A DNA stretch of 64,000 bases from Octopus vulgaris. Its lineage: Eukaryota. Position numbers and translations under genes: made by a program. Positions 6,017 through 8,164 of this stretch are shown here, in pieces. The DNA is taken from NCBI GenBank assembly GCA_951406725.2, contig OX597825.1:86614001-86678000 (forward strand), read 5' to 3'. The notes beneath the pieces are model-generated. The model searched no databases. It had not been told where the DNA came from and was given only the letters and a program-made list of their open reading frames with translations. Numbering within the stretch: position 1 is the first letter of the stretch; each line of letters begins with the position of its first letter.

Positions 6017-7625
6017 GTAAGCTTTCCCCACCTATATTTCCAATCAAGGAATATCCTATTTTCCTATCATTTATTAGTATAGCAATAATACCTTTAGTCC
6101 CTTCACCTGTTGTGATTAACAACATTAATGCCAGCACCTATATTTGACATCTACTTCTAGTGTATAGATGCTGGCATTCCAATGTCCTTAATCATAATTT
6201 TATAATTATATACTTAAAAATCAATTTTACCGATATGGTTGTTTTTTATACGCTAGCCACTGATATAATCATTTTAAAGATTATATCAATTTATAAATAA
6301 ATATATATATATATGTCGATGTGGTTGATTTGTAAGAAGCTTACTTTCCAACCACATCGTTCTAAGTTCAGTCCCACTGCATGGCACCTTGGGCAAGTGC
6401 TTTCTACTGTAGCCTTGGGCTGACCAAACCCTTGTGAGTGGATTTGGTAGAAGCCTGCCATGTGTGTGTTTGTTCCTCAACATTGCTTGACATCTGGTGT
6501 TGGTGTGTTTACATCCCATAAGTACTAGGCTTTAAAAATAAATTGATTCATTTGACTAAAACTTCTCCACAGTGGTGCTTCAGCATGGTCGCAGTCTAAT
6601 CGTTGAAACAAGTAAATGATAAAAGATGTCTAATATTAGACTGTATACTATTTGCCAGCCTACATAAACGTGTGTCCTGCTGCAGTTTTATTGAGAAACT
6701 GGGATTATTTATTGTTGGCTGGGTCACAGGCTGTGTCACTGCCCCTTACAATCAACTACTCCCAAATCCTAGCAACTTGTACATGTCATTTGCTTTGGTT
6801 TCTATGGCTCATTGCCCTTCATTATGCCAACCACTTTACAGAAAGATCTGGGGCCATTTTCTCATGGCACCAACACTAGCAAGGTTGATTTGTCCTTGAT
6901 AAGATGGAACTAGAGGGACCATGCTTGTGCGTGTGTGTGTGTGTGTGCATACGCAAGGGTGTCCATGCAGGCATGGATGATGAGTGTGTGGTTAAGGGGT
7001 CTGCTTCCCAATCGTGTGGTCGTAGAGGTTCAGTGTCATTTTGCAGCACTTTGGCCAAGTGGCTTCTGCTTTTTACCTTGAGCCGACTGTTGCCCTCTGA
7101 GTGAAATTGGTAGACAAGAACTGCATGGAACACTTTGCATGTGTCTGTGTTGTATTCCTTACGATGTTGGATTGTTATAACTCTCACTCTGGTAAACAGT
7201 ATACTTAGTAAACCCAGTAAAGACAGGACTCTCTCTGACCACCTACTATGTACTCTGGTACTCCACGTACTTCTCTTTACTTATAGTGACTAGGTTATTC
7301 CATTCGTCATGTGGGAAGGGCACACCATTATTACTAATTTCCTATAACAGTGTGAAAGTTTTCATTTCCACTTCTTGCATGAGACTGTTTGAACAAAAAG
7401 CAGTGTCTCATTCTTACGTTGACAATGAACTTGATGTCAGGTAGCTCTGAGCTCTTAAGATTGTGGAGTAAAATCTCCTTTATTTACATTATTTGCATTT
7501 GACGGATATTTGTCCTCATCTTGTTTGTTGTTAACACAATGTTTCGGCTGATATACCCTCCAGCCTTCATCAGGTGTCTTGGAGAAATTTCAAACCTGGG
7601 TTTTCACTCCTAAGCTATTTTTCAA

Positions 7626-7667
<42 letters not shown>

Positions 7668-8164
7668 GATGGTCACTGCCTGGAATCGAACTTGGAATCT
7701 TGGGGTTAGTAGCCCACGCTCTTAACCACAACACCATATGCCTGTGGGCATAATGGTTAAGAGCATGGGCTAGTAACCTCAAGATTCTGAGTTCGATTCC
7801 AGGCAGTGACCTGAATAATAATAATTATAATAACATCGGAAAATACGTTTTACATTATTTACATCTGACGGATATTTAGCCTCATCTTGTTTGCTTTTAA
7901 CACAACGTTTCGGCTGATATACCTTCCAGCCTTCTTCAGGTGTCTTGGAGTTTTCTTCAGGTGTCTTCAGGCTGGAGGGTATATCAGCCGAAACGTTGTG
8001 TTAAAAGCAAACAAGATGAGGCTAAATATCTGTTAAATGTAAATAATGTACATAATTCCTCATCTCTTAAATATAGAACTATAAAATCTCCTTTATTTGT
8101 AAAACAGGAAATAAATACTCATTCAACGTTTGCCAGCATAGAAAAACAAACCTGTACATATCCA

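What the first reader, a model, noticed from the sequence alone, without database searches (positions are those of the whole stretch)
7469..8098. tRNA-headed SINE fused to a hammerhead ribozyme, inserted as a multi-fold-back with a 17-bp TSD
Seen: read on the minus strand from ~7745 to 7486, the unit is a tRNA-like head (A-box TGGTGTTGTGGTTAAG, B-box GTTCGATTCC), then (AAT)n, a ~40-nt spacer, a hammerhead (7578-7533) and an AT-rich end. The insertion continues with a forward head (7746-7846), a second inverted 3' fragment with a hammerhead (7851-7950), and a forward 3' fragment plus a 31-nt tail (7969-8081). All of it sits between perfect copies of TAAAATCTCCTTTATTT. Known: minimal type I hammerheads with palindromic stem III, inverted 5'-truncated terminal repeats and a short 3' extension are hallmarks of Penelope-like element (PLE) pseudo-LTRs and metazoan non-LTR retrozymes; ordinary SINEs borrow LINE 3' ends instead. 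Inference: this is a Pol III-transcribed, ribozyme-bearing SINE mobilised by a PLE reverse transcriptase, a SINE/PLE/ribozyme hybrid that may be undescribed in this lineage.
Basis: partly seen in the sequence, partly recalled or inferred. Interest (0 to 1): 0.9.

Follow-up and report, generated by a model that had tools for sequence, protein, structure and literature searches.

The report
Penelope retroelement with tRNA-derived promoter
The insert is a back-to-back set of end fragments of a Penelope-type jumping gene whose own terminal repeat contains a tRNA-like module; that module likely acts as an RNA polymerase III promoter, which would explain the thousands of short, SINE-like copies in this animal genome.

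Summary
The anatomy is real, but this is not a separate SINE fused to a ribozyme. The unit (tRNA-like head, (AAT)n, spacer, minimal hammerhead, 30-nt tail) is the terminal repeat (pLTR) of a decayed Penelope/Poseidon-type element. The head follows the ORF's stop codon in 27 of 30 GIY-YIG loci. Spacer, hammerhead and tail are the ORF's translated N-terminus, and the tail end maps onto the reverse-transcription start site measured for the anole element PAc. Back-to-back arms with one tail (53 of 58 pairs) and TSDs (25 of 58; control 0 of 169) are the family norm, so the window is a slightly elaborate ordinary insertion. The unusual part is the tRNA-derived module inside an autonomous PLE's pLTR. 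Of 54 heads reaching the tRNA start, 43 end there; exact-match counts drop from 3013 to 701 across that point; and the ORF's sense strand is nearly free of TTTT terminators (0 versus 3.9 expected, P=0.007). I infer Pol III transcription from the head, feeding SINE-like short copies and perhaps the full element. RNA-seq showed no start sites, so this is untested. Not found in ten literature searches; Pol III-plus-hammerhead repeats are known from schistosomes.

The parts
7469..7485 (.). Target-site duplication, left copy (last 6-7 bases also match the inverted element end)
   Evidence: TSDs of 10-17 nt in 25 of 58 sampled pairs vs 0 of 169 controls
7486..7532 (-). Arm A 3' end, stopping before the tail (tail-less end class); codons of the PLE ORF N-terminus
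7533..7578 (-). Minimal type I hammerhead, core intact, stem III palindrome broken (ACAU)
7579..7626 (-). Spacer holding the putative start codon of the PLE ORF (this copy differs from the majority at that codon)
7627..7667 (-). (AAT)n array, length-variable between copies
7668..7745 (-). Full tRNA-derived head, A-box-like 7736-7722, B box 7691-7682; in autonomous copies it begins about 28 nt after the ORF stop
7746..7846 (+). Forward head (short A-box deletion; B box 7791-7800), short AAT array and first bases of the spacer
7849..7950 (-). Second inverted, tail-less fragment with an intact minimal hammerhead (core 7939-7933, GAAA 7911-7908, ACGU palindrome)
7951..7968 (.). Junction made of short re-copies of the adjacent hammerhead stretch (slippage, inferred)
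   Evidence: family D3
7969..8050 (+). Forward 3' fragment starting in stem II (no CUGANGA); shares four minority variants with 7849-7950, none with arm A
8051..8080 (+). 30-nt PLE tail; its end corresponds to the PAc reverse-transcription start site
   Evidence: PMC11167929
8082..8098 (.). Target-site duplication, right copy

Best explanation
The insert consists of terminal-repeat (pLTR) fragments of a decayed Penelope/Poseidon-type retroelement whose pLTR contains a tRNA-derived module, and that module likely served as an internal Pol III promoter whose transcripts were copied back by the element's own RT-GIY-YIG protein. Shown by sequence: full-length order is [head-(AAT)n-spacer-hammerhead-tail = ORF start]-RT-GIY-YIG-stop-28 nt-[head-(AAT)n-spacer-hammerhead-tail]; 3' ends fall in two classes 25-30 nt apart; arms lie back to back with one tail, often inside a TSD; 5' ends pile up at the tRNA start. 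Inferred steps: (1) a tRNA or simple tRNA-(AAT)n SINE landed in the 3' UTR of a founder PLE and was fixed in the source lineage; (2) Pol III starts a few bases upstream of the tRNA +1 and reads on, since the sense strand has almost no TTTT; (3) as shown in vitro for PAc, the protein binds the ORF's first ~170 nt, nicks both strands of AT-rich DNA and starts reverse transcription inside the RNA at two nearby sites, giving one tail-bearing and one tail-less cDNA; (4) each cDNA truncates or runs off at the RNA 5' end, and the two are joined head to head; (5) any short copy keeps promoter and protein-binding site, so it would behave as a SINE. The window insertion is one event using at least two RNA molecules and one extra template jump (inferred). 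The hammerhead is inherited PLE anatomy; cleavage is probably not needed for these insertions.
For: Head follows the stop codon in 27 of 30 GIY-YIG-selected loci and in near-full-length copies, one of them a partial tandem (L201). Open frame from the spacer ATG through hammerhead and tail into a PLE N-terminus (L112, L139), homologous to the N-terminus of intact protein P0001 (39% over 198 aa, E 6e-36; sister row, SH-aLRT 100, quick tree). RVT_1 in 2 of 5 natural frames. P0014 matches the PAc template RNA printed in the supplement, and the tail end aligns to PAc codon 39, within the 111-118 nt initiation site (PMC11167929). In 96 hammerhead-selected loci: 74 tail ends and 73 pre-tail ends of 161; 53 of 58 divergent pairs have exactly one tail (P 2e-11); TSD of 10 nt or more in 25 of 58 vs 0 of 169. 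43 of 54 heads that reach the tRNA start end within 14 nt there (P 2e-28 against the within-head truncation rate). Exact-pattern counts, each with 27 fixed bases: hammerhead 5321, head 3013, stop/3' UTR 701. Only 10 of 59 such junctions are simple fold-backs at the head palindrome, and the local hairpin is no stronger than others that cause no step. No TTTT is shared among 13 near-full copies; 0 in 2499 nt of natural frames vs 3.9 under synonymous shuffling, P 0.007; 0 of 51 related PLE coding stretches of 1500 nt or more lack TTTT, median 4.7 per kb, against 0.54 per kb in 30 single copies here.
Against: No direct transcript evidence: two RNA-seq runs cover both mate orientations about equally and show no start or end pile-ups. 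A 5-bp palindrome sits exactly at the head start, and short fold-back leaders occur there, so RT pausing may contribute to the step. T-poor relatives come close in TTTT rate (0.4-0.6 per kb in L378, L379, L384, L396, L420), and the TTTT test concerns one family. The acceptor stem is broken and Rfam/ARAGORN do not see the head. Translation of an uncapped Pol III RNA is unexplained. No intact ORF was found (longest stop-free frame 569 aa among 58 matches). Paired arms are hardly more alike than random pairs (8.8% vs 9.1% differences, P 0.10; shared minority variants enriched, P 0.006), so the number of templates per event is not settled.
Confidence: 0.6

Rival explanations
1. Ordinary 5'-truncated PLE ends: the head is a passenger (an old SINE insertion in the 3' UTR), the element is transcribed by Pol II, and the RT stalls or folds back at the palindrome at the head start.
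For: Heavy 5' truncation with inverted copies is normal for PLEs (PMC8557442, passages; PMC4209133). Palindrome at the step and short fold-back leaders. No RNA start sites. The known PLE promoters lie in the pLTR and overlap a spliceosomal intron (PMC8557442, passages).
Against: 49 of 59 full-head junctions are not hairpin fold-backs; stronger hairpins, including hammerhead stem II, give no step; TTTT depletion across the ORF.
Confidence: 0.25
2. One reading: an independent tRNA SINE that captured a PLE 3' end with its hammerhead and parasitises the PLE; ORF-bearing loci with the head are later chimeras.
For: Short head-starting copies outnumber those reaching the 3' UTR about 4 to 1 by exact matches and 76 to 11 in the sample; several minority variants are shared among copies, which suggests many source genes.
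Against: The head follows the stop at a fixed distance in 27 of 30 loci chosen by protein alone; all 30 loci cut out in the search with the anole protein belong to this family; no head-less version with its own 3' end was seen.
Confidence: 0.1
3. Non-LTR retrozyme: tandem units self-cleave, circularise and are reverse transcribed.
For: Minimal hammerhead with palindromic stem III; dimer fold predicted; some tandem units exist (L115, L121); retrozymes are proposed to derive from pLTRs (bioRxiv 10.64898/2026.07.22.740005).
Against: Copies are dispersed inverted pairs or single units, not arrays; ends map to the tail sites, not the cut; no 5' pile-up at the cut (3 of 81; 2 of 44); the core is barely more conserved than its flanks within the family (3.5% vs 4.8%).
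Confidence: 0.05

Closest known systems
Penelope/Poseidon-clade PLEs, in particular PAc (Poseidon_Ac) of Anolis carolinensis (PMC11167929; PMC8557442)
   Same: Single ORF with RT then GIY-YIG; hammerhead overlapping the ORF start; two 3' end classes defining a tail; tail end at the homologous codon; partial tandems and inverted 5'-truncated copies; 35% identity over the RT region.
   Different: A tRNA-derived A/B-box module and (AAT)n array inside the pLTR; sharp 5' step at its start; ORF nearly free of TTTT. No A/B-box pair downstream of the ORF in 58 related metagenome loci scanned, many with little downstream DNA.
Minimal type I hammerheads of metazoan pLTRs (PMC4209133)
   Same: Short helix I, longer helix II, unpaired base 5' of stem II, palindromic stem III; solitary or opposite-strand pairs 100-700 bp apart, as described for Schistosoma.
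   Different: Nothing in the ribozyme itself; cleavage untested here.
Schistosome SINE-like repeats with a Pol III promoter and hammerhead (Ferbeyre 1998, Laha 2000; seen only as cited in PMC6765202)
   Same: Pol III-type promoter followed by a hammerhead in a short repeat.
   Different: Those carry canonical hammerheads shown to cleave multimers and have no described autonomous parent; here the unit is the pLTR of an RT-encoding element and ends at the PLE tail, not at the cut.
tRNA-derived SINEs
   Same: tRNA-like head, no coding capacity in short copies, high copy number, TSDs.
   Different: The 3' part is the partner's ORF start, the partner carries the same head, and insertions are back-to-back pairs.
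Animal non-LTR retrozymes (PMC7229834, PMC7761336, bioRxiv 10.64898/2026.07.22.740005)
   Same: Non-coding, hammerhead-bearing, pLTR-related.
   Different: Retrozymes are tandem and reported to lack promoters (PMC7761336); this family is dispersed, inverted and has a promoter-like head.

Membership tests
Penelope-like element, EN+ (Penelope/Poseidon type) | Single ORF with PLE RT followed by C-terminal GIY-YIG | tested here: met
   Colinear with P0001 over residues 18-846 in L201-L203; RVT_1. The GIY-YIG call rests on homology to P0001/P0014; Pfam did not name it.
Penelope-like element, EN+ (Penelope/Poseidon type) | pLTR formed by partial tandem, reaching into the ORF start | tested here: met
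   L201 and L202
Penelope-like element, EN+ (Penelope/Poseidon type) | 30-40 nt tail at one end only; inverted 5'-truncated copy | tested here: met
   53 of 58 pairs have exactly one tail
Penelope-like element, EN+ (Penelope/Poseidon type) | Phylogenetic placement in the Penelope/Poseidon clade against reference clades | tested here: inconclusive
   Quick tree of 32 rows groups it with P0001 among PAc-like proteins, but no Neptune, Nematis or Hydra references were included and the careful search did not finish
Minimal type I hammerhead | CUGANGA and GAAA core, stems I and II, NUH site, palindromic stem III | tested here: met
   Window 7849-7950; 20 of 41 unselected units keep the core, 12 of 41 also the palindrome; same motif downstream of related ORFs
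Minimal type I hammerhead | Self-cleavage | not testable with these tools
   No 5' pile-up at the predicted cut; no assay
tRNA-derived SINE | tRNA-related head with A and B boxes | tested here: met
   Profile of 83 heads hits 10 of 26 distinct host tRNAs, best Arg(TCG) E 1.9e-5; pairwise best Ala(TGC) and Thr(TGT), 0 of 300 shuffles; isotype unresolved
tRNA-derived SINE | Pol III transcription | tested here: inconclusive
   Indirect support; RNA-seq uninformative
tRNA-derived SINE | Non-autonomous family distinct from its partner, sharing only a 3' end | tested here: not met
   The entire unit lies in the autonomous element
Non-LTR retrozyme | Tandem arrays of hammerhead-bearing units | tested here: not met
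   58 of 96 loci are divergent pairs and 38 have no divergent partner arm; direct repeats of the unit are rare
Non-LTR retrozyme | Unit-length circular RNA | not testable with these tools
   No suitable reads

The most novel reading that the evidence does not exclude
An autonomous Penelope-like retrotransposon switched to a captured tRNA gene as its promoter: Pol III transcribes the whole 2.5-kb protein-coding element, whose ORF was purged of TTTT terminators, and every terminal repeat is at once a ready-made SINE mobilised by the parent's own enzyme.
Probability: 0.35. Interest if true: 0.85.

Novelty: new variant of a known kind. Interest (0 to 1): 0.62.

Why it matters
It gives a direct route from a PLE to a SINE-like family, with parent and progeny in one genome; this partnership was not described in the papers searched. 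If Pol III transcribes the ORF, it would be a protein-coding retrotransposon run from a tRNA promoter, which raises the question of how an uncapped RNA is translated and whether the hammerhead helps. The thousands of two-arm insertions also support, in genomic data from a distant animal, the internal-initiation mechanism measured in vitro for PAc. In practice, repeat pipelines are likely to file these copies as SINEs.

Tried and rejected
Rfam and ARAGORN found neither head nor ribozyme. A Pfam GIY-YIG search of G000 returned mainly another PLE family with an unrelated end, rejected as partner. Pfam did not name the GIY-YIG or N-terminal frames. Viral contigs held no relative. No RNA holder was listed by the run search; laid RNA reads showed the family on both mate orientations without start or end pile-ups, with depth doubling at the head as expected from copy number, and library strandedness is unknown. 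Hammerhead-cleaved templates: no pile-up. Core conservation within the family is weak and confounded by coding and neutral decay. Simple nesting of the right-hand pair into an older copy was rejected because no remainder of a forward arm lies between tail and TSD. Chance nesting of two elements was rejected. The tRNA isotype could not be fixed from 26 tRNAs. Three papers were not held. Scan-finding look-ups by sequence, by all words and by place were empty. Repbase, Dfam and SINEBase sequences could not be searched, so the family may already be deposited there under a SINE or Penelope label; bioRxiv supplements were not seen.

Full report
Observation. The window lies in a 2.8-Gb animal genome, G000; from recall the repeat landscape looks octopus-like, which I did not test. 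The described parts are present: a 17-bp direct repeat at 7469-7485 and 8082-8098; a minus-strand unit of tRNA-like head, (AAT)n, spacer, hammerhead and AT-rich end; a forward head; a second inverted hammerhead fragment; and a forward 3' fragment with a 30-nt tail. The first hammerhead has a broken stem III palindrome, the second is intact, and the third fragment lacks half the core. Rfam and ARAGORN see nothing here.

Family. A 31-base hammerhead pattern has 5321 exact matches (reversed control 0), a head pattern 3013. Linkage holds both ways: 24 of 30 loci found with a head-free query hold a head (window included), and 25 of 30 head-selected loci continue into spacer or hammerhead within 1.1 kb, some across later insertions. 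A profile of 83 heads hits 10 of 26 distinct host tRNAs (best E 1.9e-5); the isotype is unresolved. Median non-CpG divergence from the column majority is 4.2% over 148 units. DNA contigs of two further coded organisms cover all 30 bins of a GIY-YIG-to-tail stretch.

The partner is the parent. One locus ran past the tail into coding sequence. That piece retrieved loci where the frame opens at an ATG in the spacer and runs through hammerhead and tail into a PLE N-terminus. A GIY-YIG-like frame from one of them retrieved 150 scored matches; in 27 of the 30 loci cut out, the head follows the stop codon after about 28 nt. Near-full-length copies give the order pLTR-RT-GIY-YIG-pLTR, with a partial tandem in L201. 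The closest intact protein, P0001, is 55% identical over the RT region and homologous over the hammerhead-and-tail codons. P0014 is the anole PAc family: it matches the template RNA in supplement 1 of PMC11167929. That paper (parts 1-2 of 4 read; text of two supplements) places reverse-transcription starts 111-118 nt into the ORF; in the alignment our tail end falls, by my count, on the first base of the codon matching PAc residue 39, nucleotide 115. All 30 loci cut out in a search with P0014 belong to this one family; no intact ORF was found (longest stop-free frame 569 aa).

Insertion pattern. I took 96 loci covering the first 100 listed pattern matches on contig C1, a sample blind to upstream structure. 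Of 161 3' ends, 74 lie at the tail end and 73 just before the tail; 58 loci are divergent pairs, 53 with exactly one tail; 25 of 58 have a TSD of 10-17 nt against 0 of 169 swapped controls. Either arm can be the longer, including the tail-less one (L266, L286), so the second arm is not simply a fold-back copy of the first. This fits PAc cutting and extending both strands. In the window, the second and third fragments share four minority variants that arm A lacks, which points to at least two RNA templates in one event (inference). These features match the PLE descriptions in PMC8557442 (passages) and PMC4209133 (part 1 of 4).

Is the head a promoter? Of 87 heads, 33 are truncated inside, 43 end in a 14-nt window at the tRNA start, and 11 reach upstream (P 2e-28). 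Genome-wide, exact matches drop from 3013 in the head to 701 at the stop codon about 50 nt upstream. A palindrome sits at this point, but only 10 of 59 junctions are fold-backs there, and equal or stronger hairpins elsewhere make no step; short fold-back leaders do occur, so the hairpin takes part. No TTTT run is shared among 13 near-full copies; four natural frames tiling 2499 nt have none, against 3.9 expected (P 0.007); a second PLE family in the genome has 7-9 per ORF. Of 80 related metagenome loci I scored 58, dropping most of those with short matches; 0 of 51 stretches of 1500 nt or more lack TTTT (median 4.7 per kb), but five T-poor ones have 0.4-0.6 per kb, like the 0.54 per kb of 30 single copies here. 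Many of these relatives have the same minimal hammerhead after the ORF and none shows an A/B-box pair there, though many have little downstream DNA. RNA-seq (19,479 and 13,037 reads laid) shows both orientations and no start sites. Pol III use is therefore inferred.

Ribozyme. The motif fits the minimal type I hammerheads of pLTRs. Within the family the core is only slightly more conserved than its flanks (3.5% vs 4.8% non-CpG mismatch), and 5' ends do not pile up at the cut, in line with PAc, where cleavage was not needed for insertion.

Literature. Ten searches returned no PLE with a tRNA-derived pLTR; most listed papers were seen as listings only. Pol III-plus-hammerhead repeats are known in schistosomes (passages of PMC6765202; the original papers were not seen). 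Retrozymes are proposed pLTR derivatives (bioRxiv 10.64898/2026.07.22.740005, parts 1-3 of 5) and are reported to lack promoters (PMC7761336, passages; PMC7229834, passages). In two cephalopod repeat surveys (PMC13282606, parts 1-2 of 3; PMC8967140, passages) and PMC10886601 (passages), the text I read did not describe it. Repeat databases could not be searched. Three unchecked scan notes report tRNA-bearing, PLE-type non-coding units in other genomes; I did not test them.

Verdict. Membership in the EN+ PLEs is well supported; membership in SINEs fails on independence from the partner, though short copies likely work like SINEs. New variant of a known kind; interest 0.62; the full Pol III reading has probability about 0.35.

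Noticed in passing
L067, L072 and L091-L098 (G000): A second, young PLE family: 16 of 148 GIY-YIG matches lie in 781-aa open frames; copies end in (TA)n and carry a hammerhead-like motif with the U3-A8 core variant and a palindromic stem III, read by eye.
   Followed up: partly
L111-L118, L120-L122 (G000): Internally deleted sub-lineages in which the ORF start is joined straight to head or spacer, giving 276-380 nt direct repeats, several on contig C29; retrozyme-like derivatives of the same PLE.
   Followed up: no
L301 1283-1783: Two tail-bearing units in convergent (tail-to-tail) orientation, unlike the family norm.
   Followed up: no
L352, L364, L365, L368: Head plus (AAT)n with no spacer or hammerhead downstream: either breakage in the array or solo head-AAT retrocopies.
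   Followed up: no
L428, L422, L437, L445 (metagenome contigs): Related PLEs with a U3-A8 hammerhead core and mostly palindromic stem III downstream of the ORF.
   Followed up: no
window 12042-62792, several places: All Rfam hits in the window are below gathering score; the six alignments shown lie on TA/CA microsatellites, artefacts.
   Followed up: no
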